Virus record (IMG/VR): IMGVR_UViG_3300030108_003227
Location: 1 to 58,465 of that record
Length of the DNA stretch: 58,465 bases
DNA from: a virus
Lineage: Duplodnaviria; Caudoviricetes
Direction: 5' to 3' (one strand)
The notes beneath the pieces are model-generated. The model was given only the letters and a program-made list of their open reading frames with translations, was not told where the DNA came from and ran no database searches. The position numbers and the translations under genes were made by a program. Position 1 is the first letter of the stretch. Every line of letters starts with the position of its first letter. Positions 6,118 to 48,045 of the stretch are shown here, one piece after another.

Positions 6118-6338
6118 AAAAATCAGACTTCAAACCACACAATATGTATCACCCGAAGACGGGTAAAGCTGTAGCCGCTAAAACCTACGAGCAACATCTC
6201 GCGCTCAAGAAAAAGGGTTATGGGCATTCAGCCCCGAAGAAAAAAGCCCCGAAGAAAAAAGCCCCGAAGAAAAAAGCGGCTAAGAAGAATGAGTCTTATA
6301 GCGATGCTGTAGAAAGGCGCATGAAAGGTGGCTACTAA
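6114..6338 (+). CDS. Lys-rich small protein with APKKK repeats
   Basis: 74-aa ORF with a histone-H1-like composition. Confidence 0.6.
   Translation: MKKSDFKPHNMYHPKTGKAVAAKTYEQHLALKKKGYGHSAPKKKAPKKKAPKKKAAKKNESYSDAVERRMKGGY
6231..6275 (+). repeat. 15-bp tandem repeat x3 (GCCCCGAAGAAAAAA)
   Basis: Read directly; encodes (APKKK)3. Confidence 0.9.
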
Positions 6339-17076: not shown

Positions 17077-17517
17077 ATGTCTTCGCCTCTTTTCCCTGAT
17101 TTTGGTAGTTTTAGTTCCGGAAACCCTTTACTTGATTATTTGTCAGGGTTTGAAGGTAACACTCAAGGGGCGCAATCGCTTCCAGAACCACAGAGCACAA
17201 GTCTTCCTTCTAAGGAGGAAGACAGAAAAAAAGTGTCTGGAGATAAAAGGCGTAAAAAAAGAAGAAGAAGATTGTTGGCCCGTGCCCAACAGCAAGTGCC
17301 GCAAGCACAGCAAGCACAGCAAGCACAGCAAGCACAGCAAAATAGGGGTCTAACTACTGGTGGTCTAACTACTGGTGGTCTAACTACTGGTGGTCTAACT
17401 ACTGGTGGTCTAACTACTGGAACAGTTGGAGAGTCGTCTATTAGCGAAGACTCTCCTATGGCCCCTTACAGGGGGTTGGGTAGGAACCCTAACTCACGAA
17501 TCGGACAAGGAGGATAA
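17077..17517 (+). CDS. Low-complexity protein, 146 aa
   Basis: Basic patch, (QAQ)n and (GLTTG)5 repeats. Confidence 0.55.
   Translation: MSSPLFPDFGSFSSGNPLLDYLSGFEGNTQGAQSLPEPQSTSLPSKEEDRKKVSGDKRRKKRRRRLLARAQQQVPQAQQAQQAQQAQQNRGLTTGGLTTGGLTTGGLTTGGLTTGTVGESSISEDSPMAPYRGLGRNPNSRIGQGG
17302..17420 (+). repeat. Tandem repeats (CAAGCACAG)x4 and (GGTCTAACTACTGGT)x5
   Basis: Read directly at 17302-17337 and 17347-17420. Confidence 0.92.
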
Positions 17518-29500: not shown

Positions 29501-32500
29501 CAGCTTTGACGCAGAAGATAATGGATGGGCAAACTACTGAGGATGCAGAAGCATTCTTTGCAGCCAACCCCAGCACGTTGTCGATTGCTATCTTTTATAT
29601 AAAGAAATTCATTAACGGTTTCATCAGGGCATTCAGTGACGGCACCAAGGGGCTTAAGCCAGAAGAGCGAATTGCTGTGAACCGTATGCTGGTTGAACTT
29701 CGTGGGTTGGAGATGGGTTACCGTATGCCACGGCGAATGGACCCGAAGGCTGGTCCGGAAGAAACGGCACTCCAGTTTTTGAAGACCGTTGGTGCGGAGC
29801 CAACTGAAGAGGATGACACTATCAAAGTTGACAAAACCACGCTCCCACAAGAAATGCCGTCCGGTCTTGAGTCGGGGGTGGGGGGCACATTTGTTGTCGA
29901 GGGAGATGAGGACGTTGCTTACATGGAAGCAGTTGAGGCAGGGGACACTAAAACAGCTAAGGAAATACTCGTTAAGGCTACAGATAAGATCACTGTTGAT
30001 TCCTTCAGACAGCTCGCACATACCGTGACCTTGCAGCGCATGGGGGTTGGGTCTCTTCTCAGGGCGCAACAGGAGTATGATAAGAAGCAGGAAAAGTTAG
30101 CTGAGTTGGCTACTGAACCCACTGCGCCTACTGAACCTACCACACCCGTAGAGGAGGCAATAGGGGTAGAAGAAGTTCTTACCCCCGAGCAGAAAACTAA
30201 CTTGGATGCAGTCCTTAATGGAACCGCTCAAAAAGCGGCTCCTGTAGTAATCCCAAAAGAACAAGTTAAAGGAAAGATAGACACCTTAAAGGGTAAGACG
30301 TTTAATATACGAGGTGGCTCTTTTAAGTTCGCTGAACTTTCAGTTGGGTTTGAGTCCATAACAGGTAAACGAACCAAAACGGAAGGGGTCTTTTTCTTCG
30401 GAGGGGGGCGATTCTATGTGCAAGTAGAGATAAACGGAGTCCCCGTCACGTTTTACCAGTCCACTGGCAAAGGAGGAAAAGTATTACAGAGTGGCAGGTT
30501 TTACCCGACAATGGGCGTTGGCACTGACAAATTTATCCAAAAAACAGGAAGCAAGGACATGGCTCGCTTTTACGGGTCTCCTGAGATGGCGCAGGTTTCA
30601 GCTTTTCTGGACGCGGAATTTGGCAATTTATCCCATCTGTTACTTGGTGATGGGCGCGTAGCCGACCCCGATGTCGGGGTAGTTGGGACTAACGCCAAGA
30701 TCATGTCCCGCCTTAGTGCGGGTAGGAAAACTTACACCCAAGCAGAAATCAGTAAAGACCCCCGACTGGTCTTGGATCAGATGGATGGAATCCAGCAGAA
30801 GATCCGTGCTGGAGAACCTGCTCCTGCACCAGCGCCCACTCCAAAGCCGTCTAAGGAACACGCAGAACTCAAAAAGTTCTTTGACGATAAAGATGCTCTT
30901 CAACAGCAACTCTTTGATATGTGGGAGGAGAAGACAAAGGTTGGACCCAAGCACCTTGAGATAATCGTCCGCGACAAAGACGGTAACATCATCCCCTTAA
31001 GTCAAAGGTTAGGGTTTGATGTTAATGTGACCAAGGTGGAAGAAACGTCTCAGGTATTGGAGCCGAGGGTGCCAATCCAAGAATTTGATGAAAGCGGAGC
31101 ACCTATTACTGGCTTACCAAAATTCCGTGAAGAACTAAGTTTGTCTGAGCTGCAAAGTTTACTTGAAAATGAGGAGGAAGGTTCAGATAGAATCCCACTG
31201 ATTGAGTCGGCTATAGAACGCATCGAGAGTGAAATGCGGGACAGGGAAAAAACGAGCCGCCCACAGCCTGATGGAGACGCATTACTCAAGATGTTTGCTT
31301 CGGAATTAGGGATTAAAGTTGATGCCACTATCGACAAAGGTGGTGTGCTCTACTCTGGATTTGGTGCAAGACGGAGGCGTGGGGACACGGACTTCAACGC
31401 ATTTAATTTTGATTACGAGCAACTCTTCTCGCAGTTTGAGATGCCCGTGCTTGAGGTTGATGACCTGAAGATTGAAAAAGGATTTAAGGGTCTGATGAAA
31501 AAGCACCTTGTTGGATTGCTTCAACCAGAGATCCACCACTGGATGAAGCATCGTCAGGCTCTTAAGAAGACCGTAGCCACTGAACTTAAAATGGCGCAGG
31601 TTCAACTAAGGGGCCTGATAGAACAGGTCTATCCTGATGGATCAGTGCCTGTTGACCCTGATGGGCTAACCATTATTCAAAAAGCAACTGGATCAACAGA
31701 AGGTGTATTCCTTTCTGACGCTGTGTCAGCCCGACTCGATAAGGATCTAAACGATGCGAAGAAAGCAGCTTGGTTGAACGCACACACGCAATCCCAACAA
31801 GCTGGGGCAGACATAAAGCAGATCCAAAAAGATCAAAGGGATGCGGTAAACGCAGCTAAAGCCAAGTATGAATCAGACATTAAAGCTGAGTTGGTAAACC
31901 GCAGAGCTGAGATCGTGGCCGAGCGGGATGCAGCACGAACACGAATTGCTAAGGACTCGAAAGAGTTGCTGGTTGCTTTGATCAACCTGAGAAAATTAGC
32001 GGACAAGTTTACCAATAAACTAGAAGCAATACATAAAGAGTCTGTCATTAAGGGAACCACTGGTAAGTATGATGTTAAGATCAGCGATAACAATGGCATC
32101 TACCTGACGCGCACATACAAGATATTCTTGGACGTTGGGTATGCCGATGCCGTCCGGAAGAATCCGGAATACCAAGAGGAGCGGGATGCTGCTATCGCTT
32201 TCTTTGAGAAAACCCACCTTGAAAACGAAGAGGGCAAACTTCGTATGGAGCACCCTGCTAAGACGGATGCCGAGATCAAACAAATGGCCAAGGACAACAT
32301 GGTTGGCCGCAAGATTGGTGAGCGTGCGCTTGAAGCCTTCATCAGTTCATACGAAATGAAGGGCAGCGGGGATGCATATATGTCCGCGCAGGAATCAATC
32401 AAGTCGATGGTTGATAACTTGAAGGCCAAGAAGAACATACCGAAACCATTACGGGACATTCTGGGTGAGCAGAAAGATAAGACCACACCAGACAACCTGC

Positions 32501-36241: not shown

Positions 36242-36275
36242 TTGTTTATTGGTTTGGTTTGTTGTTGTTTGGTTT

Positions 36276-36320
36276 GGTTGCCGCTTTTCTCAGGCAAGCG
36301 GCCAGCCGTCAACTCTTTTC
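36276..36320 (-). promoter_or_regulatory. Repeat family B promoter/inverted repeat, copy 1
   Basis: Minus TTGACG-17-GAAAAG with inverted repeat GCCGCTT/AAGCGGC. Confidence 0.5.
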
Positions 36321-36628
36321 TAAAGTTTATGGACTAACTTCTGCAACTCCTCCACTTGGGCAAGTGCTTCATGAAGGACCGCATCCTTGTCAACCTTGGG
36401 TTGGTGTAACCCGATCAGCTTGTCATGCAAGCTGTCGAGTTCCTGCTTGATGACCATCTGTGCAGACTTGCGTTGCATAGCTGGGAGATATTTCCTTACG
36501 TCGATAATCATTTTTCTACTTAAGTGAGGTTGCCGCATCTTGTGCAGCCCACCGAGTTGACCACGCTCTCCGTGAGCCGTTGGTTGTTCGCCAGAACTTG
36601 CCATCTTCAAAGATGGAATAAGTCCCAT
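36320..36628 (-). CDS. Hypothetical protein, ~102 aa
   Basis: ORF on the early strand; start uncertain. Confidence 0.5.
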   Translation of the reverse strand: MGLIPSLKMASSGEQPTAHGERGQLGGLHKMRQPHLSRKMIIDVRKYLPAMQRKSAQMVIKQELDSLHDKLIGLHQPKVDKDAVLHEALAQVEELQKLVHKL

Positions 36629-36682
36629 GCCGCCACGGTTCTGTCGGACTCCATGAGAACTTAACTATTCTTCGTGTGGTAA

Positions 36683-36901
36683 TCATTTTTCCAGTTTATG
36701 TTGGGCGGCTGCGTCATCTAATAGCTTTCGCCAAGCCTTGACTCCGACATTGCGGTAGCGAAAGAATGCTCTGCGGAGTTCTTCCGCTTCCCATACGGAC
36801 TTAACTTGCATTGCCGCTTGAATAAAAGCTGCCCTATATTCGCTAGTCATCGTCCTGCTATACCATGAACGGCGTGTTATTTCTTCTAAGTCTTTAATCA
36901 T
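36683..36901 (-). CDS. Hypothetical protein, 72 aa
   Basis: ORF on the early strand. Confidence 0.55.
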   Translation of the reverse strand: MIKDLEEITRRSWYSRTMTSEYRAAFIQAAMQVKSVWEAEELRRAFFRYRNVGVKAWRKLLDDAAAQHKLEK

Positions 36902-36918
36902 TGTTCTGTTGGTTCGGG

Positions 36919-37278
36919 TTAGTGGTATTCAGGGTTAGCGGGGTCCATGATGTGGTTAGCATATCGCTCCGCATCTTCCTCCTCCCATGCGGGAGAACCG
37001 TAGACAGGATAATCGCGGGTCCAATACTTAAGTTGGATCACACCACGCGCAATGATCTTGTCGCAGAGTGCTTGTGCTTTCTCCTCTTCACTCGATTCAA
37101 AGCCCACATCCATCAGGCAGAAGCGTTCACCACGCTCTGTTGTAGCCTTGATGAATATCTGCTTTCCCCACACAGCACCACGCGGGTTCGTCATGTCGGC
37201 GTGCTCATGGTGGAAGCACCGGATGTATTCATCCTCGAAAGGATATGCATTGACGATTTTGATTTTGTTTTTGTCCAT
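36919..37278 (-). CDS. Hypothetical protein, 119 aa
   Basis: Leader AAACAAATAAGACAATG. Confidence 0.65.
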   Translation of the reverse strand: MDKNKIKIVNAYPFEDEYIRCFHHEHADMTNPRGAVWGKQIFIKATTERGERFCLMDVGFESSEEEKAQALCDKIIARGVIQLKYWTRDYPVYGSPAWEEEDAERYANHIMDPANPEYH

Positions 37279-37291
37279 TGTCTTATTTGTT

Positions 37292-37465
37292 TTACTCTTC
37301 TAAATACTGGTCAAAACTACGGTAACCCGTCACTGCATACAGGACGCTTTCCATAGTTTCTAAACTCCATCCGTTTATCGCGGTGACTACTTTAAGGGTG
37401 TCTTCAGAAACCCCTGCGTGTTCGATTAAGCAATCCCATGCTTCGTTTACTATAGTGTTACTCAT
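37292..37465 (-). CDS. Hypothetical acidic protein, 57 aa (not in ORF track)
   Basis: MSNTIVNEAWDCLIEHAGVSEDTLKVVTAINGWSLETMESVLYAVTGYRSFDQYLEE; same AAACAAATAAGACAATG leader. Confidence 0.65.
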   Translation of the reverse strand: MSNTIVNEAWDCLIEHAGVSEDTLKVVTAINGWSLETMESVLYAVTGYRSFDQYLEE

Positions 37466-37497
37466 TGTCTTATTTGTTTTTTAGTTTTTGGTTTTAA

Positions 37498-37529
37498 GGT
37501 TGCCCCTTTTATCAGGCAAGGGGCCAGCC
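37498..37529 (-). promoter_or_regulatory. Repeat family B, copy 2 (lacks -35)
   Basis: Plus GGTTGCCCCTTTTATCAGGCAAGGGGCCAGCC. Confidence 0.5.
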
Positions 37530-37537
37530 TTTGGGTT

Positions 37538-38869
37538 CTATTCGTGCATGTCGCTATGGTTAGCGATCTTCCGGTTGATGCTTGTCATCACCTTCTCCTC
37601 GATGGAGTTGGCGGCAACCAGCACCTCCTGCAAAGCGTCCGACTTGGCACCGTTGCGGTGAATCCTGCCGAGCACCTGCTGGTATTCCTTCGCGTTGAAG
37701 GTTGGGCAGATCAGGGATGACCGTGGGCGTTTACCTTGCACATCGTGTAGTGAGATACCCGTGCCCCCAGCAGAGATGTTGCACACCACGCAATGGGATT
37801 CATCACGTTGGAAGCTGTCGATGATAGCTTGCCGTTGTGCTGGTGTCTGCGAACCATCAATCGAGTCACACTTCAGACTGACCTTCAGTGCTTCGACCGT
37901 ATCCGAGAAGTTCACAAACACGACAACACTCTTGCCAGCCGCCATTGAATTCTTTGCCATCTCTGCAATGTCCACCGCCTTGTAACTCTCAGCCAACTGG
38001 CGAGCCTTGAGCAAGCGGACAAGGACATGCTCACTATCAGTGACGGTCCCCTTCTGGATGAAGTCGTCAATGATCTTAGGTGTAATGCCAAGGTCGTCAT
38101 ATGCCTTGATGATCTTGTCATTGCTGCGGAAGTTGATCGGTCGCACAAACACACGGTTGTTGCGGAAGGCATCAGGGAAGTCAGCCGAGGTCAGCCTGTT
38201 AGTATTGACCCCATACATGAGCGCACGAAGTCTGCTAAGTGCCGTGCGGTCAGTCATCTTGTAACTACCCCACTGATCCTGAGTCACACCGAAGTTCCGC
38301 ATGAACCTCCAGAAGTGATCCAGTCCACCCTTGGCGAACTTGCCAGAGTGCAGCCCGAGCATCAGCCCGAGTGCGTTCATCTCCGTTGCGTCCTCACAGG
38401 GTGTTCCGGACATGCCGTGGATGCGGTAGCCTTGAGTCACCAAGGCAATCAGCATCTTGCTGTTAGCTGTGTTCAGCCCTTTACACTTATGGATCTCGTC
38501 CACAAGGATGAGGGTATCAGTGGGGAGTGAGTTCACGTTCCACTGAAAGGCATGTGCCTTCCTGCTACCACGTTGCGTGGTGATCTTGTCGAGGTAGGGT
38601 GTGCTCCCTGTCTTCAACTTCTCAAGGTTGGAGACAAAGATAGGTGTGATGCCAACCTCTTCCAGCTCGCGTTCCCATGCGGGGATTACTGCCTTGGGGC
38701 AGATTACCGCAACGGGTTTGCCGTAGTCACGGGCAAGGTGGCAAGCCACCACCGTCTTGCCCGTCCCCATCTCAGATGAGTCGAGCGTGTTCTTTCCAGA
38801 CAGCAGCACCTTCAAGAAGAAGAGCAGCGCCTGAACCTGCACAGGGAATAGTGTTTTAACTATCTTCAT
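37538..38869 (-). CDS. SF2 (SNF2/HARP-like) helicase
   Basis: EMGTGKT, DEIH, SGTP, GGTGISL, QVLGRIHRNG. Confidence 0.88.
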   Translation of the reverse strand: MKIVKTLFPVQVQALLFFLKVLLSGKNTLDSSEMGTGKTVVACHLARDYGKPVAVICPKAVIPAWERELEEVGITPIFVSNLEKLKTGSTPYLDKITTQRGSRKAHAFQWNVNSLPTDTLILVDEIHKCKGLNTANSKMLIALVTQGYRIHGMSGTPCEDATEMNALGLMLGLHSGKFAKGGLDHFWRFMRNFGVTQDQWGSYKMTDRTALSRLRALMYGVNTNRLTSADFPDAFRNNRVFVRPINFRSNDKIIKAYDDLGITPKIIDDFIQKGTVTDSEHVLVRLLKARQLAESYKAVDIAEMAKNSMAAGKSVVVFVNFSDTVEALKVSLKCDSIDGSQTPAQRQAIIDSFQRDESHCVVCNISAGGTGISLHDVQGKRPRSSLICPTFNAKEYQQVLGRIHRNGAKSDALQEVLVAANSIEEKVMTSINRKIANHSDMHE

Positions 38870-38891
38870 TTTGTCTTTTGTTGTTTAGGTT

Positions 38892-38936
38892 GGGTGCCCC
38901 TTTTATCAGGCAAGGGGCCAGCCGTCAATTCTTTTC
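38892..38936 (-). promoter_or_regulatory. Repeat family B promoter, copy 3
   Basis: Minus TTGACG-17-TAAAAG (extended TG) with inverted repeat GCCCCTT/AAGGGGC. Confidence 0.55.
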
Positions 38937-38937
38937 G

Positions 38938-40428
<1,491 letters not shown>

Positions 40429-40505
40429 AATGTTTATGTTCTTTCTACTGTTTGTTGTTAAGGTGGGGCAAGGTATAGTCGGTTATACCTTGCCCCCTTG
40501 GTTGG

Positions 40506-41501
40506 TTAGATCACAAGCAGATCGTCTGCCGCCGCAAGAACGAGGTCAGACTTCTTACTGAGATCCTCAAGGAGTTCCTCCCTTTCAGGTGGGTCCATCT
40601 TGGGAAGCTCCAACGACTCATAGTCGGACAGGATGGTGTTGCAGATATTGCGAACAAGATCAGCAACGGGTCCAGCAGTCACACCGAAACGATCCTGCTT
40701 GTCCTTGATCGAGTCCACCCTGTTAAGGATGTTACGCATGTTCTCGTTACGCCACCGTCCATTCTTCTTATTGTGAGACTCATCCAGCTTGCCGATGTTT
40801 TGCCTGATCAGCTTGCCGAGTCCGTCCAGTTCATTGGCGAATGCTTTCTCCTCCAATGTGGCTTGGCGTTGTGCTGCTTGCATCGCAGCAGCAATGCCTC
40901 GATTCATTGCCTCATCAGCAATAGCACTGACTGCGCTAAGGTTTCCAGTAACCAATGGTTTCTCCATGAAAACCACGGAGACTTGGAACTCATTGGCGAA
41001 CTCCTCTGCATCCGTGGGATACTTGGGCAACGCTTCCTTAAGCAGTTCCCTGCCATTGTAGTTAGGGTTGCCCTCCAAGTCATCCTTGCCCTGCCTCATA
41101 AGGAAATCGAATTCCTTAATGACTTCGGCCTTGGCCTTGGTGAGTTCGCTCTGGGTCCGGTCATAGATGACCTGCACCTTAGCCTTGTCCTTGTTGGAGA
41201 TGATGTGTGTTCCCTTGTCGAACTGTAACGATTCGCCAAGGCCGACTGTCTTATCGCCATCGCGGATAGACTTACTGAAGCTGGAAAGAATCTTCCTGAC
41301 TTTAGATATAGAGTTATCCTTGGTGCGATAGAGTGAGGCATTGATTCGGACATTCTTCTTGCCCTCCTCAATACCATTGGCACGCCGCAACTTCGCCGCC
41401 GCCGCCTTAAGGGAGGTGTTCGGGTTGGCTTGCTTAACGTGAGGACGCACCATGCTGGTGCCCCTGATCTCTTCGATGCCCATGTTATTTAGTCCATTCA
41501 T
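40506..41501 (-). CDS. DUF3150-like helical protein
   Basis: Lies between the AAA and vWA genes; ASLY, KYPTDAEEFANEFQV and a helical C-terminus; family call tentative. Confidence 0.45.
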   Translation of the reverse strand: MNGLNNMGIEEIRGTSMVRPHVKQANPNTSLKAAAAKLRRANGIEEGKKNVRINASLYRTKDNSISKVRKILSSFSKSIRDGDKTVGLGESLQFDKGTHIISNKDKAKVQVIYDRTQSELTKAKAEVIKEFDFLMRQGKDDLEGNPNYNGRELLKEALPKYPTDAEEFANEFQVSVVFMEKPLVTGNLSAVSAIADEAMNRGIAAAMQAAQRQATLEEKAFANELDGLGKLIRQNIGKLDESHNKKNGRWRNENMRNILNRVDSIKDKQDRFGVTAGPVADLVRNICNTILSDYESLELPKMDPPEREELLEDLSKKSDLVLAAADDLLVI

Positions 41502-41648
41502 TTCTCTTATGTTCTTTCTACTGTTTGTTGTTTGGGTGCTCCTTCTTTGAACGGTGAGAAGCTAACCGTCAATTCTTTTCTGATCTTATCTTGTCTGATG
41601 TTAAAAGGGGGCAAGGTATAGTCGGTTATACCCTGCCCCCTTGCTTGG

Positions 41649-41732
41649 TTAGTTAAGGTCGCGGATCACCTTGTCACCCTGCTCCTCAAGAGCGGTGAGC
41701 GTATCCGGATCAAGGAACTGCTCGTCACCCAT
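41649..41732 (-). CDS. Acidic micro-protein, 27 aa (not in ORF track)
   Basis: MGDEQFLDPDTLTALEEQGDKVIRDLN; TAATG-coupled to the AAA stop and ends just before a hairpin repeat. Confidence 0.5.
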   Translation of the reverse strand: MGDEQFLDPDTLTALEEQGDKVIRDLN

Positions 41733-43012
41733 TACTTGAAGGTGACGAGAGATTCTACCTGCTCCACATCAATGCCGCGCAACTGGCAGAGATCGAATGA
41801 CCACTTGCCAATCTCACGATCAACATTGAGCAGCAACCTCTTGGTGAACCATCCAGTCGCCTCCTGAATGTGGAGGGCGGCATCCAGATTCTCAGTCTCC
41901 TGCAACACTGCAACAGCAGCGAGGCAGAACTGATACTGTTCAGCAGGTGACGAGGGAAGAACCGCATCATCACCATTGATGTATTTCTTAACCTCGTTCT
42001 TCGATTTGCGGATAACCTTGATGTATTGGATAGCACGATCTGCCATCTTGTGTCCGAGGTATCCACGAAGCATGATCTCGAAACCATCAGGGTCGCTACT
42101 CCAATCGAGGAGGGCTTCCTTCATGGCATACGCGGAAGATCGGAATGAACATATCTGCTGACCACGATGCCCATCATTCTGATCGAAGATGGAACACTTA
42201 GCGAGTTGCTCACTGGCAATCCCTTTGGCCTTGGCTTCAATGTTATGTTCAAACTGCACCCAACCGAAGAGGGGTGACCGCGCCATCAACTCACCACCCT
42301 TGGGGCCAGCCAACTCTTTCTTCAACGCAAGAACATTCTTGAGTGTGAAGGGTGCGTTAGCCAACAGGTATTCCGGTGATGCCTTATGACTGCGAGACAG
42401 AACATGGAGGTAATCATTCACGTTACCATTAGACGTAATGTTTTTAGCCCTGTTGACGAACGGAGTCCTCAACCGTTGGGATGAAGAACCGTCAATGCCA
42501 GCACGGTTAGCTGTCATGTAGATTGCGAGGTTCGGCATACACACCCTTGACAGTGCGCTATCCGGATCGGACAGATCAAGGATAGTGTCCTGTGTCTGCT
42601 GCGTTGCCGTGCCGATCTCATCTACATGCCACAATATTGTAGCATCCAGTCCAATGGCCTTACCATTCCGCTTCACCTTAGACCAGTGATGACGGATAGG
42701 CACACACTCATGGTCTTGCAGATAAACCTTCACCTCTTTCGAGTCAGGGTTTGCGTGGTCCGGTGCTCGCATCCCTTTCAGAACGGAGGTCGGAATGTCA
42801 GTCGCATTCAGCGTGACCCTGCCAAGGGCACCGACCAGACCAGCGAAGAGCTTCGCCCTGTATGTCTTGCCAGTTCCACATGGTCCGGTGCTCACCATAG
42901 GCACATTGTTGTCATGGACCTGCATTGCGACTGCTTGATTCGCAAACTGCTGGTCCGTGTCAACGGGGTTGCCCTGCTCATACTCTGCCTGTGCTTCATT
43001 TGTTTTACTCAT
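41732..43012 (-). CDS. MoxR-like AAA+ ATPase
   Basis: GPCGTGKT, HVDEI, MTAN, PFVNR; ATG 43012 follows the repeated leader. Confidence 0.8.
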   Translation of the reverse strand: MSKTNEAQAEYEQGNPVDTDQQFANQAVAMQVHDNNVPMVSTGPCGTGKTYRAKLFAGLVGALGRVTLNATDIPTSVLKGMRAPDHANPDSKEVKVYLQDHECVPIRHHWSKVKRNGKAIGLDATILWHVDEIGTATQQTQDTILDLSDPDSALSRVCMPNLAIYMTANRAGIDGSSSQRLRTPFVNRAKNITSNGNVNDYLHVLSRSHKASPEYLLANAPFTLKNVLALKKELAGPKGGELMARSPLFGWVQFEHNIEAKAKGIASEQLAKCSIFDQNDGHRGQQICSFRSSAYAMKEALLDWSSDPDGFEIMLRGYLGHKMADRAIQYIKVIRKSKNEVKKYINGDDAVLPSSPAEQYQFCLAAVAVLQETENLDAALHIQEATGWFTKRLLLNVDREIGKWSFDLCQLRGIDVEQVESLVTFK

Positions 43013-43152
43013 TTCTCTTATGTTCTTTCTACTGTTTGTTGTTTGGGTGCTCATCCTTTACATGGCGATGAGCCTTCCGTCCATTCAATTCTTTTCTTTT
43101 GAAGTTAAAAGGGGGCAAGGTATAGTCGGTTATACCCTGCCCCCTGTTGGGG

Positions 43153-43512
43153 TTAGAGACGCTCCGCTACCAGTTCAAGTTTCTGGATAACGGATCGCAG
43201 GGCTACATGAGCATCTTCATAGGCCGAGTTTTTCTGGGCCTCGATGCGTTCAGCTTGTGCCTTAGCCTTGCACACAATGTCTTGCGCTTCCGCTTCAGCA
43301 TTGGCAAAGATGTCCTTCGCTTCCTGCACCATCTCACGGTGGTATTCTTTCACCGTCTTGCCATAAACATCAGGGGATACATCCAATCGGATAGCCTGCC
43401 TGATGTATGGCAGTTGGTTAGCGAAGTAATCTCCGCAGTAAGTTGTGTCCCCATCTCTAGTGAGGGAGGCCACGAACTCTTCCAGCAATTTAATCTCTTC
43501 TTCTTTTGTCAT
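43153..43512 (-). CDS. Hypothetical coiled-coil protein, 119 aa
   Basis: ORF ending before a hairpin repeat. Confidence 0.65.
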   Translation of the reverse strand: MTKEEEIKLLEEFVASLTRDGDTTYCGDYFANQLPYIRQAIRLDVSPDVYGKTVKEYHREMVQEAKDIFANAEAEAQDIVCKAKAQAERIEAQKNSAYEDAHVALRSVIQKLELVAERL

Positions 43513-43517
43513 TGTTC

Positions 43518-43958
43518 TTATTTGTTGAATCCCTTTTCACCTTTGCGAATGAGACGAGCAAGATACTGGAGGTCTTTCGCCAACCGTTCATCCCTTTCTG
43601 CTCTGGCACCTTCTGTTATGGCTCCACGCCACACCTCTTTCGATTCCGGACTGAGGTTAGGAGAGTCTTGCAGGAATGCTGTTACCTCCTCATCAATCTC
43701 TTCATTGGTTTGGGGCCTGCGTCGGTTCACTAATGGATGCTTAGGGTTGACGAGAACCTCAGTCTTTGCACGGATCTTGCAATCATCCACCATGATGGAT
43801 GCGAATCCGGTGCAGACTATTCCTCCTGTAGCCAGAAGGATAGACAACAACTGGAAGCTACCGAGTTGGTAGTCCAGTGCAAGGTTGGCCAGTCCGATGA
43901 GGAACAGGACAACCCCGAGTGCCACAAGGACACGGTATGCTATTATCATTTTCTTCAT
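43518..43958 (-). CDS. Hypothetical membrane protein with two N-terminal TM segments
   Basis: MKKMIIAYRVLVALGVVLFLIGLANL...; ATG 43958 follows the leader. Confidence 0.65.
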   Translation of the reverse strand: MKKMIIAYRVLVALGVVLFLIGLANLALDYQLGSFQLLSILLATGGIVCTGFASIMVDDCKIRAKTEVLVNPKHPLVNRRRPQTNEEIDEEVTAFLQDSPNLSPESKEVWRGAITEGARAERDERLAKDLQYLARLIRKGEKGFNK

Positions 43959-44044
43959 TTGTCTTATCTCGTTTGTTTGTTTTTGGTTTAAGGCAGCAGG
44001 GTATAGTTGGTTATACCCTGCCACCAGATTGGTTAGCGGAATGG

Positions 44045-44230
44045 TTAAGGGTTGAAGGGCAGTCCCATCTTGCGACCAAGATGGTAACTGATTTCGTCGA
44101 TCTTACGCGACAGTTGCTGCCGCGTAGCCGGTGTGAGGACATGCCCGCTATCGGCCAGCCTCATCTTATAGTTTGCAAGGAGCGCTTTGAGATCGTCCTT
44201 GCTCATCTCTTCCAGTTGTTGTCTAGCCAT
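44045..44230 (-). CDS. Hypothetical protein, 61 aa (cassette)
   Basis: Bounded by hairpin repeats. Confidence 0.7.
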   Translation of the reverse strand: MARQQLEEMSKDDLKALLANYKMRLADSGHVLTPATRQQLSRKIDEISYHLGRKMGLPFNP

Positions 44231-44304
44231 TGTCTTATGTTCTTTCTACTGCTTTTTGTTAAGGGCGGCAGGGTATAGTTGGTTATACCCTGCCACCAGA
44301 TTGG

Positions 44305-44685
44305 TTAGTCCCCGATAACGAGGTTTCCGGTGGACGGGTTGTAGTATCCGACCTGCTTCCAGCAGACATGTCCGAGAGGCTTGTCCTCACTGTGTCCGAT
44401 CCGCTCCCAGATCGGGAGATGCTTGTAGGTGGGGGAACGCTCCGGCGTGAGTTTATCCTCCACCCATGCGACCTCCACCCATGTGACTCCGCTCCAGCTT
44501 AACAGGAGCCACTCGCCCACCTTCACCTTGTCGGCATCCTGCATGAATTCGTCGAGGGTGAATTCGCTCTCCCACTCAGCGTTCTTGGGATACCACGCGA
44601 AGTGGACCCGCTTATCGTGCCTCTCGGTAGCCAGCTCCAGTGCTCGCTCCTGAGTCTCGGTAAGTTCAATGTTTCTGTGTTTCAT
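44305..44685 (-). CDS. Hypothetical Trp-rich protein, 126 aa (cassette)
   Basis: Bounded by hairpin repeats. Confidence 0.7.
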   Translation of the reverse strand: MKHRNIELTETQERALELATERHDKRVHFAWYPKNAEWESEFTLDEFMQDADKVKVGEWLLLSWSGVTWVEVAWVEDKLTPERSPTYKHLPIWERIGHSEDKPLGHVCWKQVGYYNPSTGNLVIGD

Positions 44686-44760
44686 TTTACTACTTTGTGT
44701 TTGTTGTTTTTGGTTTAAGGTAGCAGGGTATAGTTGGTTATACCCTGCTACCTAGATTGG

Positions 44761-45006
44761 TTAGTCCCACTTATTGAAGATCACCTTGTTTCCCTTGGTG
44801 AAGGTGCGCTCTTGCAGAACAGGCACCCCGTCCACACCTTCAAACTTTCTAGTGAAGGTGCCTTCCTCCATAGCGAGAGCTTTCTTCGGGGAGGTGGAGA
44901 TACACACTCTGGTGTAGGTGCCGGTCTCCCAATTACCACCGCAGGAGGGTGGGTTCTGCTGATGCTCTACGATCTTGTATTTGTAGAGGTTGGATTGTCT
45001 AGCCAT
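44761..45006 (-). CDS. Hypothetical protein, 81 aa (cassette)
   Basis: Bounded by 55-bp exact repeats. Confidence 0.7.
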   Translation of the reverse strand: MARQSNLYKYKIVEHQQNPPSCGGNWETGTYTRVCISTSPKKALAMEEGTFTRKFEGVDGVPVLQERTFTKGNKVIFNKWD

Positions 45007-45076
45007 TTGTCTTTCTGTGTTTGTTGTTTTTGGTTTAAGGTAGCAGGGTATAGTTGGTTATACCCTGCTAAAATCT

Positions 45077-45376
45077 TTACCCTTCCAGCGCATGGGCAAG
45101 GGCAGCGAGGTCATGGATTGCCAAGTAATCTTCCAGCTTCAGTTGGACTGCATCATAGAATGTTTCGGTGGCGATCACCTTGCCCCCTTCAGTTGCATTG
45201 ACAGTCTGGGGATGGATAGCGTGGTTTGCGATGTGGGTAATGTTACCGCAATCATCTACAGTGAAGATGTCTTCCCGCTTCTGAATCAGATACTGGAATA
45301 CTTCTTCATTCACTCTGCCGCCAAACACATCATGCACTATGCAGAAGTTTGTGTCGGAATCGTTTACTTTGCTCAT
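45077..45376 (-). CDS. Hypothetical protein, 99 aa (cassette)
   Basis: Bounded by hairpin repeats. Confidence 0.7.
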   Translation of the reverse strand: MSKVNDSDTNFCIVHDVFGGRVNEEVFQYLIQKREDIFTVDDCGNITHIANHAIHPQTVNATEGGKVIATETFYDAVQLKLEDYLAIHDLAALAHALEG

Positions 45377-45448
45377 TGTTATTTGTCTTTCTGTGTTTAG
45401 GGTTAAGGTAGCAGGGTATAGTTGGTTATACCCTGCTACCAGTATCTA

Positions 45449-45691
45449 CTAGAATTCCATCGCCGTGTTGCACTCATAATTGAGAGCACGACAGACTTCT
45501 GCCTTGGTCCGTCCGAAGGAAAACGAGGCGTAGGATGCACTAGTCTGGATTGCATACCAGTCATCCATGTCATCCTTTCCCGCCTCAATAGCTGCCTCGT
45601 TCACGGCGAGCTTGGCCTCGTCAAGAGTGGGGAAGTATTTGGAACGGGTATCCCCATTGGCATTGGTGTATGTTGCAATAGTAACATTCAT
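45449..45691 (-). CDS. Hypothetical protein, 80 aa (cassette)
   Basis: Bounded by hairpin repeats. Confidence 0.7.
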   Translation of the reverse strand: MNVTIATYTNANGDTRSKYFPTLDEAKLAVNEAAIEAGKDDMDDWYAIQTSASYASFSFGRTKAEVCRALNYECNTAMEF

Positions 45692-45767
45692 TGTATTTGT
45701 CTTTCTGTGTTTGTTGTTTTTGGTTTTAGGTAGCAGGGTATAGTTGGTTATACCCTGCTAAGATTGG

Positions 45768-45986
45768 TTACTTGGTTCTGGAGTATCCACACTTAGGACA
45801 CTTGCATACAGGAGTAGGTGAGATGATGCCAACGGAGCGGGTGTTGCAGGTATAATTGGTGGTTTCGGATGTCTTTTTGTAGAGGGGCGTGTTACCTGCA
45901 AAGGTAACTCTCTTCAGGGCAAGGCCATCTTGGAGAGGGACATTGCAACGGGGACACGTGGAAGCGGGATTGGTAGTAGTGTTCAT
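45768..45986 (-). CDS. Zinc-ribbon protein, 72 aa (cassette)
   Basis: CPRC...CPKCGY; ATG 45986. Confidence 0.65.
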   Translation of the reverse strand: MNTTTNPASTCPRCNVPLQDGLALKRVTFAGNTPLYKKTSETTNYTCNTRSVGIISPTPVCKCPKCGYSRTK

Positions 45987-46125
45987 TTTGTATTTTCGGT
46001 TTAAGGTCTGCTCTATCATGGCAAACTCATCTCTGCCAAGGGGCAGCAAGGTATAGTTGGTTATACCTTGCCGCCGCCTTAGCAGGGCATGAATTGGCTA
46101 TGGTGAGGGTATAGTTGGTTATACC

Positions 46126-46650
46126 TTACGCGGCGTTCTCAGCCGCATTCACAACCGCTTCCAAGCCATGCTGCTTCACAAGGCTGGCCACGATCTGCTC
46201 CATCGTGCGGGGCTTGCGCTTGCCCTTCTTATCGCCATCCCAGATAGGCTTAAGGGTATTGTTATTATCCTGCTTTGTGAGATAGGCGCTCTTCCGGCGA
46301 ACCGAGGGAGCGGGCTTGATGCAATAGCCAGCATCTTCCATCATCTTCAACCCCGCGTTCCATGCTCGGAAGAAACCTTTCCGAGATACCCCAGACTCCT
46401 TGGCACGGGTAGCAAAGTCAAGGTGATTGGGCGCATGCCCTTCACTGGCGACCACTCCAGCGACGACGCTGGAGATGGCATCCTCTTCATTCCCGTTGTT
46501 GATCTTACCGGACCCAAAAGCGTGGATGGTGTCCACGATATTGTCGCAGGACCGATGGTGCTCTATTCCGGCAATGGCGCATGCTTTGTCGAACTTGGCA
46601 TTGTTCGATGCGAAGATTGCGGTCAGTTTAGCTGTGGTTGTATTGTTCAT
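46126..46650 (-). CDS. First early gene, hypothetical 174 aa with basic C-terminus
   Basis: ATG 46650 after an A/C-rich leader; its stop abuts a hairpin core. Confidence 0.65.
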   Translation of the reverse strand: MNNTTTAKLTAIFASNNAKFDKACAIAGIEHHRSCDNIVDTIHAFGSGKINNGNEEDAISSVVAGVVASEGHAPNHLDFATRAKESGVSRKGFFRAWNAGLKMMEDAGYCIKPAPSVRRKSAYLTKQDNNNTLKPIWDGDKKGKRKPRTMEQIVASLVKQHGLEAVVNAAENAA

Positions 46651-47073
46651 CTTATCTTGTTTTCTGTTTTTGTGTTTGTTGGTGAGGGAGGGGGTATAAT
46701 TGGTTATACCTTTTCTCTCCCTCTTCACCTCTGAATGGGGGGCAAGCAAAGCAAAGTCTGGAAAACAGGGGGAAGGGGAAGAGAAAAACCGTTGCACCTT
46801 TCCTGCTAGGTTCAAGTGAACCGTGCAACCGTGCACCTCCTCCAGATGCCCTTTGACTGGCCCTATATAGTCCTGTTAAATCAATTCGTCATATTCCACT
46901 TACCTAAGTCACTGAGAATGAGGGAGTTAGGTTATAAGTTCTGACAAGATGTGTAATGCTGACTAGACGCCACGGGGGGGGTGGGGGTTTTTTATGCACG
47001 CACGCATGTATATATATCTAGGCGTGTGAAAAAATTTGACTCTCCTTATTTTGCACGCATTATGCACGCACCT

Positions 47074-47313
47074 ATGGCAACGAGGGCATATTACCTGAAG
47101 AACAAAGCGGCACGGCTAAAATACCAGCGGGAATACTACCAAGCGAACAAGGACAGAATCGCTAGAAAACGTGAGGTTGCGGAGACTGTAGACCCAGAAC
47201 TGCGCGAAAAACGTAAGCGGTATCAACGTGCATATTACCGTAAAAACCGTGCACGGATTCTGGCAAAGCGTGCAAAACAGTATGCGCTTAAGAAGTCCGC
47301 AAAATCGAAATGA
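47074..47313 (+). CDS. Basic helical protein with YY..N repeats
   Basis: RAYYLKNK/REYYQANK/RAYYRKNR, as in HNH-associated helical regions. Confidence 0.55.
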   Translation: MATRAYYLKNKAARLKYQREYYQANKDRIARKREVAETVDPELREKRKRYQRAYYRKNRARILAKRAKQYALKKSAKSK

Positions 47314-47393
47314 AAAGTTTTCCTAGATGTATATATAATAGTATAATGATTATACTGTTATATATAGCATAGGAAAAACTTTTCAAACCACTC

Positions 47394-47963: not shown

Positions 47964-48045
47964 TGTGTCGATTTGGCCCTGAAATTTCGACACAAAAAAC
48001 CCGCTTCGGGTTGCGCTCCCCCGAAGCGGGTTGAATTCTTTTCTT
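47964..48045. terminator. Tandem hairpins, probable bidirectional terminator
   Basis: TGTGTCGA/TCGACACA and a 13-bp stem AACCCGCTTCGGG/CCCGAAGCGGGTT with A- and T-runs, between convergent genes. Confidence 0.7.

What the first reader, a model, noticed from the sequence alone, without database searches (positions are those of the whole stretch)
40429..46712. Array of 12 co-oriented hairpin elements delimiting gene cassettes across the early region
Seen: most genes from 40.4 to 46.7 kb are separated by the same module on the coding strand: stop, often CCAATCT, a stem of up to ~14 bp around GGTATA-ACCRAC-TATACC, an A/C-rich leader, then ATG. The 18-bp core is nearly invariant, while the outer stems differ but stay paired (GGGGCA/TGCCCC, GGTAGCA/TGCTACC, GGTGGCA/TGCCGCC). 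The cargo is mostly unrelated small orphan genes. No U-tract, no -35 box, and no integrase or cas operon is seen. Inference: a repeat-delimited cassette system for host-takeover or anti-defence genes. The hairpin may be an RNA processing or protein-binding site, a hairpin promoter, or a recombination site. Partial analogies are T4-type PeSL elements, T7 RNase III sites, N4 hairpin promoters and integron attC, but none matches this sequence to my knowledge.
Basis: partly seen in the sequence, partly recalled or inferred. Interest (0 to 1): 0.88.

Follow-up and report, generated by a model that had tools for sequence, protein, structure and literature searches.

The report
Hairpin modules that shuffle phage early genes
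An uncultured marine phage separates its small early genes with twelve copies of one hairpin-containing spacer, and its close relatives carry different genes between the same spacers, so the spacers look like both expression signals and exchange points for gene cassettes.

Summary
There are 12 exact GGTATA-N6-TATACC sites at 40472-46710 and none in 100 shuffles. All lie on the coding (minus) strand. Ten of them sit in 12-16 bp G+C-rich stems (-19 to -30 kcal/mol).

The hairpin is part of a roughly 80-nt module: stop codon, CCAATCT, hairpin, A/C-rich leader with no Shine-Dalgarno, ATG.

Eleven other contigs of near-identical phages carry the same module. Between the modules they hold different, reordered or missing ORFans. 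Crossovers fall at several points inside the module.

At the three variable stem pairs, 17 distinct hairpins show 10 G.U and 1 A.C on the sense strand, and the reverse on the antisense strand. One relative has a hairpin with a different, compensated inner stem. No phage RNA polymerase, integrase or ribonuclease was found.

My best reading (about 0.55): these are intercistronic RNA hairpin and leader modules of an early operon transcribed by the host polymerase. They also serve as substrates for homologous recombination. That makes them a promoter-less, hairpin-centred analogue of the T4-type PeSL cassettes, a new variant of a known kind. The biochemical role of the hairpin (stabiliser, processing site or attenuator) is not resolved, because no RNA data exist.

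The parts
46684..46723 (-). Hairpin 1. It lies in the 5' leader upstream of gene A. Core 46693-46710, 7-bp inner stem, internal loop, 7-bp outer stem GAGGGAG/CTCCCTC.
   Evidence: -17.8 kcal/mol sense, -22.8 antisense. Conserved in L012, L060 and L086.
46108..46125 (-). Hairpin 2. Core-only copy that abuts the stop codon of gene A. With hairpin 3 it bounds a 40-nt empty cassette.
   Evidence: -5.3 kcal/mol. Present in 5 assemblies.
46042..46075 (-). Hairpin 3, before gene B. 14-bp stem with one G.U.
   Evidence: -30.1 kcal/mol.
45731..45760 (-). Hairpin 4, B|C junction. 12-bp stem.
45407..45440 (-). Hairpin 5, C|D junction. 14-bp stem.
45041..45070 (-). Hairpin 6, D|E junction. 12-bp stem.
44718..44753 (-). 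Hairpin 7, E|F junction. 15-bp stem.
   Evidence: (z = -7.5 against shuffles).
44264..44297 (-). Hairpin 8, F|G junction. 14-bp stem with one G.U.
43992..44025 (-). Hairpin 9, G|H junction. 14-bp stem with two G.U.
43110..43145 (-). Hairpin 10, I|J junction. 15-bp stem followed by UUUU. Terminator-like. The GAATTGAAT promoter-like module follows it.
   Evidence: (flagged as terminator-like).
41605..41642 (-). Hairpin 11, J|K junction. 16-bp stem followed by UUUU. The GAATTGACGG promoter-like module follows it.
40465..40496 (-). Hairpin 12, K|L junction. 13-bp stem.
43153..46650 (-). Variable cassette zone. Genes: A 46126-46650, B 45768-46019, C 45449-45691, D 45077-45376, E 44761-45006, F 44305-44685, G 44045-44230, H 43518-43958, I 43153-43512. 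Each gene is preceded by an A/C-rich leader of about 30-45 nt with no Shine-Dalgarno.
38938..43012 (-). Conserved cassettes. J: weak AAA-ATPase match, 41732-43012. K: 40506-41501. L: DUF2201 VWA-like plus metallopeptidase-like, 38938-40428.
   Evidence: Amino-acid identity in L012 98-100% and in L026 94-99.7%.
46862..46890 (-). Candidate sigma-70-type promoter for the leftward early operon: ATGACG, 17 nt, TATATA. It lies about 150 nt upstream of hairpin 1. I found it by eye, and the scan tool did not flag it.
   Evidence: the -10 reads TATAAA in L012 and L060. Inference only.
36253..38936 (-). Second intergenic module family, at 38869-38936, 37475-37542 and 36253-36320: (GAATTGAC)GGCTGGCC(C/G)CTT...AAG(G/C)GGC hairpin plus A/C-rich leader. 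Related copies lie at 41487-41587 and 42998-43098. This family also sits at indel breakpoints in relatives.
   Evidence: (families D4, D5).

Best explanation
The twelve elements are copies of one intergenic module of about 80 nt. It runs stop codon, CCAATCT, a 12-16 bp G+C-rich hairpin, an unstructured A/C-rich leader with no Shine-Dalgarno, then ATG. The modules lie in a leftward early operon that the host RNA polymerase transcribes from a promoter region upstream of hairpin 1.

The hairpin forms in the mRNA and acts after transcription. Between cistrons it would work as a 3'-end barrier or processing signal, and as an insulator for the standard leader that follows it. The two copies with a U-tract would act as terminators, each ahead of a promoter-like module.

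Because the module is repeated twelve times in direct orientation, it is also a substrate for homologous recombination within and between co-infecting relatives. That recombination adds, deletes, swaps and reorders ORFan cassettes.

Shown here: the repeats, the hairpin covariation, the strand bias, and cassette turnover with crossovers at several points. Inferred: transcription by the host enzyme, and the exact RNA role.

The system works like a T4-type PeSL array, but it is centred on a hairpin and has no recognisable promoter in the module.
For: 1. Reality of the repeats: 12 of 12 exact cores against 0 in shuffles. Stems fold at -18.8 to -30.1 kcal/mol in 10 of 12. The fold z-score is -7.5 for one module.

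2. Structure is selected. Among 17 distinct canonical hairpins, 3 stem pairs vary, with 14 cells changed on both sides, and 97.5% of cells are paired. No shuffle of 500 reached the observed pairing or covariation score. L060 carries a hairpin in the same module context with a different inner stem and loop, all compensated: 15 bp with a 4-nt loop.

3. Strand. At the variable pairs the sense strand has 10 G.U and 1 non-pair. The antisense strand has 1 G.U and 10 non-pairs. In the window, all 5 canonical hairpins that hold a G.U (3, 8, 9, 10 and 11) fold 3-5 kcal/mol better in the sense strand.

4. Cassette turnover.
- window: A|-|B|C|D|E|F|G|HI|J|K|L
- L012: A|-|B'|D|X|Y|E|Z|HI|J|K|L
- L037: ..|B|C|D|E|F|Z
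- L086: A|-|D|X|E|Z|G
- L060: ..B'D|X|Y|E|new gene
- L026: ..|G F|HI|J|K|L

5. Homology-driven rather than site-specific exchange. Hairpin arms are hybrid. Leaders are exchanged between genes: the HI leader in L026 equals the Z leader in L012. The G-F junction in L026 lost the hairpin through the shared CCTTAA. The second module family also flanks a 700-bp indel. Shared cassettes D and E are 92-94% identical while the backbone is 98%. Gene A is 70% identical in amino acids in L086, beside a portal that is 100% identical.

6. Terminator logic. Only hairpins 10 and 11 carry UUUU, and only they are followed by the GAATTGA(C/A) module that looks like a -35 box.

7. No phage polymerase to serve a special promoter.

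8. Published precedent: PeSL modules, read in the abstracts of PMC2839356 and PMC4122927 and in section 13 of PMC2839356.
Against: - There are no RNA data. No RNA run holding the stretch was listed, so no transcript end, processing site or read-through has been observed.
- The two atypical copies (hairpins 1 and 2) fold better on the antisense strand: -22.8 against -17.8, and -12.9 against -5.3 kcal/mol. I left these two classes out of the pair counts (5 of 22 distinct sequences dropped).
- At one variable pair the arm combinations are close to what independent assortment of the observed base frequencies would give. So part of the G.U excess could reflect composition or strand-biased C-to-T change rather than selection.
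- The distinct hairpins share ancestry and are not independent events.
- The 18-nt core is far more constant than a purely structural role needs. In 22 distinct sequences only two loop positions vary. A core-only copy with almost no stem is conserved in 5 assemblies. Both facts fit a sequence-specific binder, or concerted evolution.
- The host and its promoter consensus are unknown, so a promoter inside the module cannot be excluded.
- Short-read assemblies can mis-join at 80-nt repeats. Seven contig ends lie within about 110 nt of a hairpin. However, several orders recur in contigs with different accession prefixes.
Confidence: 0.55

Rival explanations
1. The conserved core is the recognition site of a dedicated factor that reads its sequence. 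One form is an RNA hairpin bound or cut by a phage or host protein: a Cas6/Csy4-like or coat-protein-like processing or translation regulator, or an antiterminator. The other form is a DNA palindrome (GGTATA, 6 nt, TATACC) bound by a dimeric regulator that blocks elongation at each junction, as stoperators do, to shut off early genes.
For: Both GGTATA/TATACC arms are invariant in all 22 distinct copies, and only two loop positions vary. A core-only copy with a -5.3 kcal/mol stem is kept in 5 assemblies. All 12 copies point the same way as transcription. Stoperators give a precedent for many co-oriented intergenic sites that stop elongation (PMC9283540, abstract seen in the listing).
Against: No candidate binder was identified. 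Gene A, the basic ORF at 46981-47313 and the other early proteins have no family match. The model of protein A was too poor to use, with pLDDT 52.7. One relative uses a hairpin whose inner stem and loop differ, in the same module context. A dimeric DNA binder does not need the outer stems to covary or to prefer G.U on one strand. Concerted evolution of recombining repeats can also keep a core constant.
Confidence: 0.15
2. Each hairpin is, or overlaps, a promoter for a transcription machinery that I did not recognise. That could be a hairpin promoter for a polymerase carried in the virion, perhaps within the 4680-residue protein, or for a phage sigma-like factor. Each cassette would then be its own transcription unit.
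For: Hairpin 1 lies upstream of the first gene. The distance from core to ATG is 38-45 nt in 8 of 12 copies. The phage has a giant virion-type protein of unknown function. There is a weak AAA-ATPase match beside a DUF2201/VWA protein, a pairing I recall from N4-like phages (the recollection is from memory). A phage sigma factor that reads a single TGTATA-type element exists in the phiEco32/SU10 group (passages of PMC4281155). The portal here is SU10-like as a lead only.
Against: The giant protein has no T7-like motif B, no T/DxxGR and no DxDxD metal-binding motif by regular expression. It has no Pfam, PHROG or PDB sequence match. tblastn against 50,697 phage records finds no match to N4-like phages. 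Only the C-terminal part matches virion structural proteins of Cellulophaga, Pseudoalteromonas and Pelagibacter phages. N4 promoters use a small hairpin with a 3-base loop (a stem of up to 7 bp is mentioned) on the template strand (PMC4496689, passages). Here the stem is 12-16 bp, the loop is 6 nt, and the pairing bias favours the non-template strand. F is carried without its own hairpin in L026. Two hairpins stand in tandem with no gene between them. The module has no sigma-70-type site.
Confidence: 0.1
3. The module is mainly a selfish or neutral repeat, a small palindromic element that spread between genes. It has no role in expression, and cassette turnover is only a by-product of its presence.
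For: The copies are highly similar and the core looks homogenised. An empty cassette and a junction without a hairpin show that genes tolerate gain and loss of the hairpin.
Against: The repeat runs exactly from stop codon to start codon and includes the translation leader. It always has one orientation and occurs only in the early operon: 12 of 12, with no relic elsewhere. Stem pairing is kept through compensatory changes. No transposase and no target-site duplication was seen.
Confidence: 0.1
4. The hairpins are folded single-strand DNA sites for site-specific recombination, like integron attC sites, that capture and excise cassettes.
For: The elements are co-oriented hairpins bounding cassettes that apparently lack their own promoters. 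One strand pairs better than the other, as is described for attC sites (PMC6393395, abstract seen in the listing).
Against: None of the ORFs I scanned (those of 150 aa or more plus a selection of smaller ones) matched an integrase or any other recombinase. Crossovers lie at different points: in the arms, in the leader, and at CCTTAA with loss of the hairpin. The stems are near-perfect, without the extrahelical bases that I recall for attC. A second, unrelated module family also marks indel borders.
Confidence: 0.03

Closest known systems
PeSL (promoter-early stem-loop) regulatory cassettes of T4-type myoviruses (Arbiol et al. 2010, PMC2839356; Comeau et al. 2014, PMC4122927)
   Same: Both are short repeated intergenic modules that run from the upstream stop codon to the downstream start codon. 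Both contain a stable stem-loop with G-T pairs. Both are concentrated in a plastic early region upstream of ORFans. In both, insertions, deletions and replacements between close relatives map to the modules and are ascribed to homologous recombination.
   Different: The GGTATA module has no sigma-70-type promoter. It has an A/C-rich leader in place of a Shine-Dalgarno sequence. One near-invariant 34-nt hairpin is the centre of every copy. PeSLs instead have variable stem-loops placed around a conserved promoter. The phage is not T4-like: it is 58 kb, has a family-A DNA polymerase and, as a lead only, an SU10-like portal. Mini-circles have not been tested. A second module family here (GAATTGACGG plus hairpin) looks more like a classical PeSL.
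RNase III processing sites between the early genes of phage T7
   Same: Both are hairpins between cistrons of a polycistronic early RNA, including one ahead of the first gene. The stem of 12-16 bp exceeds the minimum of about 11 bp for RNase III (PMC3867540, passages).
   Different: T7 has five sites whose sequences differ (the review says five; that they differ is my recollection). Here the sequence is nearly constant. The stems are shorter than the ideal 22 bp. Cleavage has not been tested.
Hairpin promoters of the phage N4 virion RNA polymerase
   Same: Both are DNA inverted repeats upstream of early genes in a phage that carries a giant virion protein.
   Different: N4 has a few small hairpins with a 3-base loop, read on the template strand by a T7-like polymerase (PMC4496689). 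Here there are 12 long hairpins with a 6-nt loop, the bias is on the non-template strand, and no polymerase was detected.
Stoperators of Cluster A mycobacteriophages
   Same: Both are many short sites in intergenic positions, co-oriented with transcription, across operons (PMC9283540, abstract; that stoperators are intergenic and co-oriented is my recollection, not in that abstract).
   Different: Stoperators are asymmetric sites of about 13 bp, with no hairpin, bound by the immunity repressor of temperate phages (recalled). Here no repressor or lysogeny gene was seen.
Integron attC sites
   Same: Both are hairpin-forming repeats that bound promoter-less cassettes, and one strand is preferred.
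   Different: There is no integrase, no single crossover point, the stems are near-perfect, and the setting is a virulent-type phage.

Membership tests
PeSL cassettes (T4-type phages) | Repeated intergenic motif from the upstream stop codon to the downstream start codon, enriched upstream of ORFans in a plastic early region | tested here: met
PeSL cassettes (T4-type phages) | Contains a strong sigma-70-type early promoter (-35 and -10 boxes) | tested here: not met
   The scan flags no minus-strand (coding-strand) promoter-like site in any of the 12 modules; its one hit there (43099-43126) is on the plus strand, and the count (10) is below the shuffle mean (12.9). Inspection by eye finds no acceptable pair of hexamers. 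The host consensus is unknown, so a non-canonical promoter is not excluded.
PeSL cassettes (T4-type phages) | Stable stem-loop able to attenuate or terminate transcription | tested here: inconclusive
   The stems are stable. Only 2 of 12 have a U-tract. Termination itself cannot be tested here.
PeSL cassettes (T4-type phages) | Indels and replacements between close relatives map to the modules | tested here: met
PeSL cassettes (T4-type phages) | Recombination between neighbouring modules gives packaged mini-circles | not testable with these tools
   Needs outward PCR or long reads. No DNA run was available to lay.
T7-type RNase III sites | Double-stranded RNA stem of at least about 11 bp between cistrons of an early polycistronic RNA | tested here: met
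   Stems of 12-16 bp in 10 of 12. The minimum length comes from PMC3867540.
T7-type RNase III sites | Cleavage by host RNase III that leaves a 3' hairpin | not testable with these tools
   No RNA data.
N4 hairpin promoters | Small hairpin (stem of up to 7 bp, 3-nt loop) active on the template strand | tested here: not met
   Stem 12-16 bp, loop 6 nt. The pairing bias favours the non-template strand. The definition comes from PMC4496689.
N4 hairpin promoters | Phage encodes a T7-like RNA polymerase carried in the virion | tested here: not met
   No motif, Pfam, PHROG, PDB or tblastn support in the 4680-residue protein or in any other ORF scanned. A very divergent enzyme cannot be excluded.
Integron attC | An associated tyrosine recombinase (integrase) | tested here: not met
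   No recombinase family in the ORFs scanned. Not every small ORF was scanned.
Integron attC | Exchange at one fixed point in the folded site | tested here: not met
   Breakpoints lie in the arms, in the leader and at CCTTAA.
Intrinsic (Rho-independent) terminator | G+C-rich hairpin followed directly by a U-tract | tested here: not met
   Met by 2 of 12 (hairpins 10 and 11, UUUU). The other 10 are followed by UUAAAC, CUUAAC or similar.
Rfam RNA families | Match at gathering score to a curated model | tested here: not met
   One search gives only a sub-threshold chance hit: let-7, 29.9 bits against a cut-off of 53.5.

The most novel reading that the evidence does not exclude
The near-invariant hairpin core is read by a dedicated factor that has not been identified, either an RNA-processing or antitermination protein or a hairpin-dependent initiation system. 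On this reading the array is a self-contained platform. It gives any ORF dropped between two modules a standard signal for expression and, through the same repeat, a route for exchange between co-infecting phages. That would be a phage counterpart of an integron, working by RNA signals and homologous recombination instead of an integrase.
Probability: 0.15. Interest if true: 0.85.

Novelty: new variant of a known kind. Interest (0 to 1): 0.6.

Why it matters
Modular shuffling at repeated regulatory cassettes has so far been documented mainly in T4-type myoviruses. This case shows the same logic in an unrelated, uncultured marine phage lineage. It is built around one hairpin and a leader with no Shine-Dalgarno, with no visible promoter.

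It also shows cassette turnover among genomes whose backbones are 96-98% identical. That points to a general way in which phages keep a fast-evolving set of small early genes, the class that usually holds host-takeover and anti-defence functions.

Three practical points follow:
- The module marks where accessory early genes sit in related metagenomic contigs.
- It explains why assemblies break there.
- It offers a compact natural part (hairpin insulator plus leader) that could be tested as an expression cassette in hosts that do not use Shine-Dalgarno sequences.

Tried and rejected
- **Expression data.** The sequencing-run search listed no RNA holder. Laying three metatranscriptome contig sets gave one low-complexity fragment only. 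Nothing follows from this for or against expression.
- **Wider relatives.**
  - The phage database had no DNA match to the array.
  - It had no tblastn match to TerL or to protein L.
  - Its DNA polymerase hits were below 30% identity.
  - Protein searches for J, K and F found only close kin, at 53-100% identity.
  - An alignment-based scan of viral contigs gave the same two contigs again.
  - A scan with the leader pattern gave 15 unrelated loci with no protein similarity.
  - The variant hairpin of L060 is absent from viral contigs and from all other held loci.
- **Pelagiphage HTVC027P.** It shares part of the giant protein, but its genes are tightly packed and it has no comparable array by its annotation. 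I dropped it.
- **Giant protein as polymerase.** Regular expressions, Pfam, PHROGs, PDB sequences and two tblastn searches were all negative.
- **The 755-residue ORF as polymerase.** The Atlas points to an SU10-type portal, which is a lead only.
- **Protein A as the binder.** The Atlas gave no named cluster. The AlphaFold model had pLDDT 52.7, so I ran no fold search.
- **An rrn-type boxB-boxA antitermination site** (hairpin followed by CUUAACAA). A search with the recalled boxA consensus at up to 2 mismatches found 10 sites against 6.5 expected, and none in a module. Rejected.
- **A sigma-70 promoter in the module.** None was flagged.
- **Rfam and literature.** Rfam gave no family. A search of the held PubMed Central and bioRxiv full text for the three core 18-mers found 0 papers.
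- **Not seen.** I did not see the supplementary figures of the PeSL paper, which hold its reporter data.

Full report
**What the window is.** The window is a complete record of an uncultured virus: 58,465 bases, linear, with an estimated completeness of 97%.
- It encodes a family-A DNA polymerase, a primase-like protein, an exonuclease, a helicase and a large terminase.
- It has an amidase and a 755-residue protein that the Atlas places with SU10-type portals, as a lead only.
- It has a 4680-residue ORF with no family match at all. The C-terminal part of that ORF resembles virion structural proteins of Cellulophaga, Pseudoalteromonas and Pelagibacter phages at 22-25% identity.
- No cultured phage is close.
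- At most one or two of 27 genes have a well-placed Shine-Dalgarno sequence.
- No tRNA was found.

**The observation.** The pattern GGTATA-N6-TATACC occurs 12 times between 40472 and 46710 and never in 100 shuffles. There is no degenerate copy elsewhere. All genes here run leftward.

On the coding strand each copy lies in the same module: stop codon (often CTAA), CCAATCT, outer stem, GGTATAACC(A/G)ACTATACC, outer stem, CCTTAA(A)C, an A/C-rich leader, ATG. The distance from core to ATG is 38-45 nt in 8 of 12 copies.

Ten copies form stems of 12-16 bp with a 6-nt loop, at -18.8 to -30.1 kcal/mol. Two are atypical:
- Hairpin 2 (46108-46125) is the bare core, abutting the stop codon of gene A.
- Hairpin 1 (46684-46723) has an internal loop.

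Perfect stems of 9 bp or more are otherwise almost absent from this genome: two other sites in 58 kb. So this is a special feature of the leftward early block, not the phage's general terminator style.

**Relatives and cassette turnover.** Exact-core scans found the array in two other IMG/VR contigs. They also found it in nine metagenome contigs out of 96 stretches. The remaining 87 were single hits, which I take to be chance matches. None of them encoded a relative of a window protein.

Backbone DNA identity to the window is 96-98%. Grouping the ORFs between hairpins by blastp gives these orders:
- window: A|-|B|C|D|E|F|G|HI|J|K|L
- L012: A|-|B'|D|X|Y|E|Z|HI|J|K|L (L096 agrees as far as it reaches)
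- L037: A|-|B|C|D|E|F|Z
- L086: A|-|D|X|E|Z|G
- L060: A|-|B'D|X|Y|E|new gene
- L026: G F|HI|J|K|L

Genes B, C, F and G of the window are absent from L012, which has B', X, Y and Z instead. The order of F and G is inverted in L026. The 40-nt interval between hairpins 2 and 3 is an empty cassette in every assembly that covers it.

Shared cassettes are more diverged than the backbone. D is 94% and E is 92-93% identical, against 98% for the backbone. Gene A is 70% identical in amino acids in L086, beside a portal that is 100% identical. Homologues of F range from 99% down to 53%.

**Where exchange happens.** The breakpoints are not at one place.
- The 5' and 3' arms of the hairpin combine in different ways.
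- The leader in front of the same gene differs between genomes. The HI leader in L026 is the Z leader of L012.
- In L026 the stop codon of G is fused through CCTTAA directly to the leader of F, and the hairpin is lost.
- In L060 one core carries a point change.
- A second, unrelated intergenic module (GAATTGACGG plus a GCCCCTT...AAGGGGC hairpin) lies at the border of a 700-bp insertion in L012 and L013, next to a replaced segment.

This pattern fits homologous recombination between short repeats, not site-specific exchange.

One caveat applies. Repeats of 80 nt can cause assembly mis-joins, and seven contig ends lie within about 110 nt of a hairpin. However, cassettes absent from the window cannot be created by mis-joining it. 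Several orders also recur in contigs with different accession prefixes. Whether these assemblies share raw data I cannot tell.

**Is the hairpin selected, and on which strand?** I collected 22 distinct 36-nt hairpin sequences and aligned the 17 canonical ones. I left out the five rows of the two atypical classes.

On the sense strand 97.5% of cells pair. Three pairs vary, with 14 cells changed on both sides. No shuffle of 500 reached the observed pairing or covariation score. At those three pairs the sense strand has 10 G.U and one A.C. The antisense strand has one G.U and 10 non-pairs, with 93.7% of cells paired.

In the window, all 5 canonical hairpins that hold a G.U (3, 8, 9, 10 and 11) fold 3-5 kcal/mol better as sense RNA. 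L060 also has, in the normal module context, a hairpin whose inner stem and loop are different but fully compensated: 15 bp with a 4-nt loop. The second module family shows a C-G to G-C swap.

These results support a structure that matters on the coding strand, which means the mRNA or the non-template DNA strand. They are not proof, for four reasons:
- The rows share ancestry.
- At one pair the combinations are near those expected from base frequencies.
- Strand-biased C-to-T change would act in the same direction.
- The two atypical copies fold better on the antisense strand.

**How the block is probably expressed.** I found no phage RNA polymerase or sigma factor. So I infer that the host polymerase transcribes the block.

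The non-coding stretch upstream of hairpin 1 is almost invariant among four genomes. It holds an acceptable ATGACG-17-TATATA site about 150 nt upstream of hairpin 1. I found this site by eye, and the scan did not flag it.

Only hairpins 10 and 11 are followed by UUUU. Only they are followed by the GAATTGA(C/A) module with a TTGAC(G) hexamer that looks like a -35 box. This suggests the following layout:
- an immediate-early operon from A to I, read through nine hairpins that do not terminate;
- two terminator-plus-promoter junctions, before J and before K;
- further promoter-like modules before the helicase and the genes after it.

In that layout the nine hairpins without a U-tract are best explained as RNA elements. 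They could be barriers to 3' exonucleases, processing signals, or insulators for the standard unstructured leader. Their stems exceed the minimum of about 11 bp for RNase III (PMC3867540, passages). In T7, five such signals punctuate the polycistronic early RNA (same source). I recall that the first of them precedes the first gene. I cannot decide among these roles without RNA data.

**Rivals.**
- *A sequence-specific factor.* It remains possible because the core is much more constant than the structure needs, and because a core-only copy is conserved. No candidate protein emerged.
- *An N4-type hairpin promoter.* It fails on hairpin size, on strand and on the polymerase.
- *An integron-like site.* It fails on the integrase and on the single crossover point.
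- *A purely selfish repeat.* It does not explain the exact span from stop to start, the single orientation, or the kept pairing.

**Comparison with what is known.** The closest described system is the PeSL cassette of T4-type phages. I read the abstracts of PMC2839356 and PMC4122927 and section 13 of PMC2839356. PeSLs are repeated intergenic modules with a stem-loop, placed upstream of ORFans in plastic regions, and they mediate modular shuffling by homologous recombination.

The present array shares the architecture and the evolutionary behaviour. It lacks the defining sigma-70 promoter and the Shine-Dalgarno sequence. It is built around one nearly invariant hairpin, and it sits in an unrelated phage lineage. 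So it works like a PeSL array but is not a member in the strict sense.

The motif is in no Rfam family. It is also in none of the searchable full texts.

**Verdict.** The feature is real and striking. Its function as a platform for cassette exchange is well supported by comparison. Its role in expression is inferred. I rate it a new variant of a known kind, with interest 0.6.

Noticed in passing
window 20548-34590 (+): A single ORF of 4680 residues has no Pfam, PHROG or PDB sequence match. Its first 2000 residues match nothing in 50,697 phage records. Query residues about 2070-2980 of the C-terminal 3000-residue piece resemble virion structural proteins of Cellulophaga phages phi18:3, phi13:2 and phi19:3, a Pseudoalteromonas phage and pelagiphage HTVC027P at 22-25% identity. 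One hydrophobic segment lies near residue 4343.
   Followed up: partly
window 38869-38936, 37475-37542, 36253-36320; also 41487-41587 and 42998-43098 (minus strand): A second intergenic module family: AAAAGAATTGACGG, then a GCC(C/G)CTT...AAG(G/C)GGC hairpin with a compensatory C-G/G-C swap, then an A/C-rich leader. It resembles a classical PeSL, with a -35-like box, a hairpin over a weak -10, and a leader. It borders a 700-bp insertion in L012 and L013.
   Followed up: partly
window 46981-47313 (+) and 47311-47385: A very basic ORF of about 95-110 residues with repeated YY..N motifs runs rightward, divergent from the early operon. Its DNA is nearly identical (3 differing columns) in four genomes, more conserved than the neighbouring genes. 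It has no family match. Just after it lies an A+T-rich inverted repeat with 37-nt arms, a possible origin or regulatory region.
   Followed up: partly
window 47998-48032: This is the only other long G+C-rich hairpin (13-bp stem). It has a T-run on the minus strand and an A-run before it on the plus strand. It looks like a bidirectional terminator between the 47394-47867 gene and the portal gene.
   Followed up: no
window 17289-17421 and 6230-6289: Tandem repeats of 9 and 15 nt lie between the terminase gene and the next large ORF. There are also three copies of a 15-nt unit (AGCCCCGAAGAAAAA) near 6230. Their function is unknown.
   Followed up: no
whole window (upstream regions of 27 ORFs): Shine-Dalgarno sequences are almost absent. 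Leaders are A/C-rich in the early block. This suggests a host that uses little Shine-Dalgarno pairing. The host is unknown.
   Followed up: partly
L013, L015, L026, L037, L086, L096, L100 (contig ends): Seven ends of metagenome or viral contigs fall within about 110 nt of a hairpin. Assemblies break at the module, as expected if populations mix several cassette orders.
   Followed up: partly
L086:1711-2217 (-): The first early gene, A, is only 70% identical in amino acids to the window's copy. The adjacent portal gene is 100% identical. So even the 'fixed' first cassette has been replaced by a diverged allele.
   Followed up: partly
window 38938-40428 and 41732-43012 (minus strand): A DUF2201 VWA-like plus metallopeptidase-like protein lies close to a protein with a weak AAA-ATPase match. 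I recall this pairing from N4-like phages. I did not test it further.
   Followed up: no
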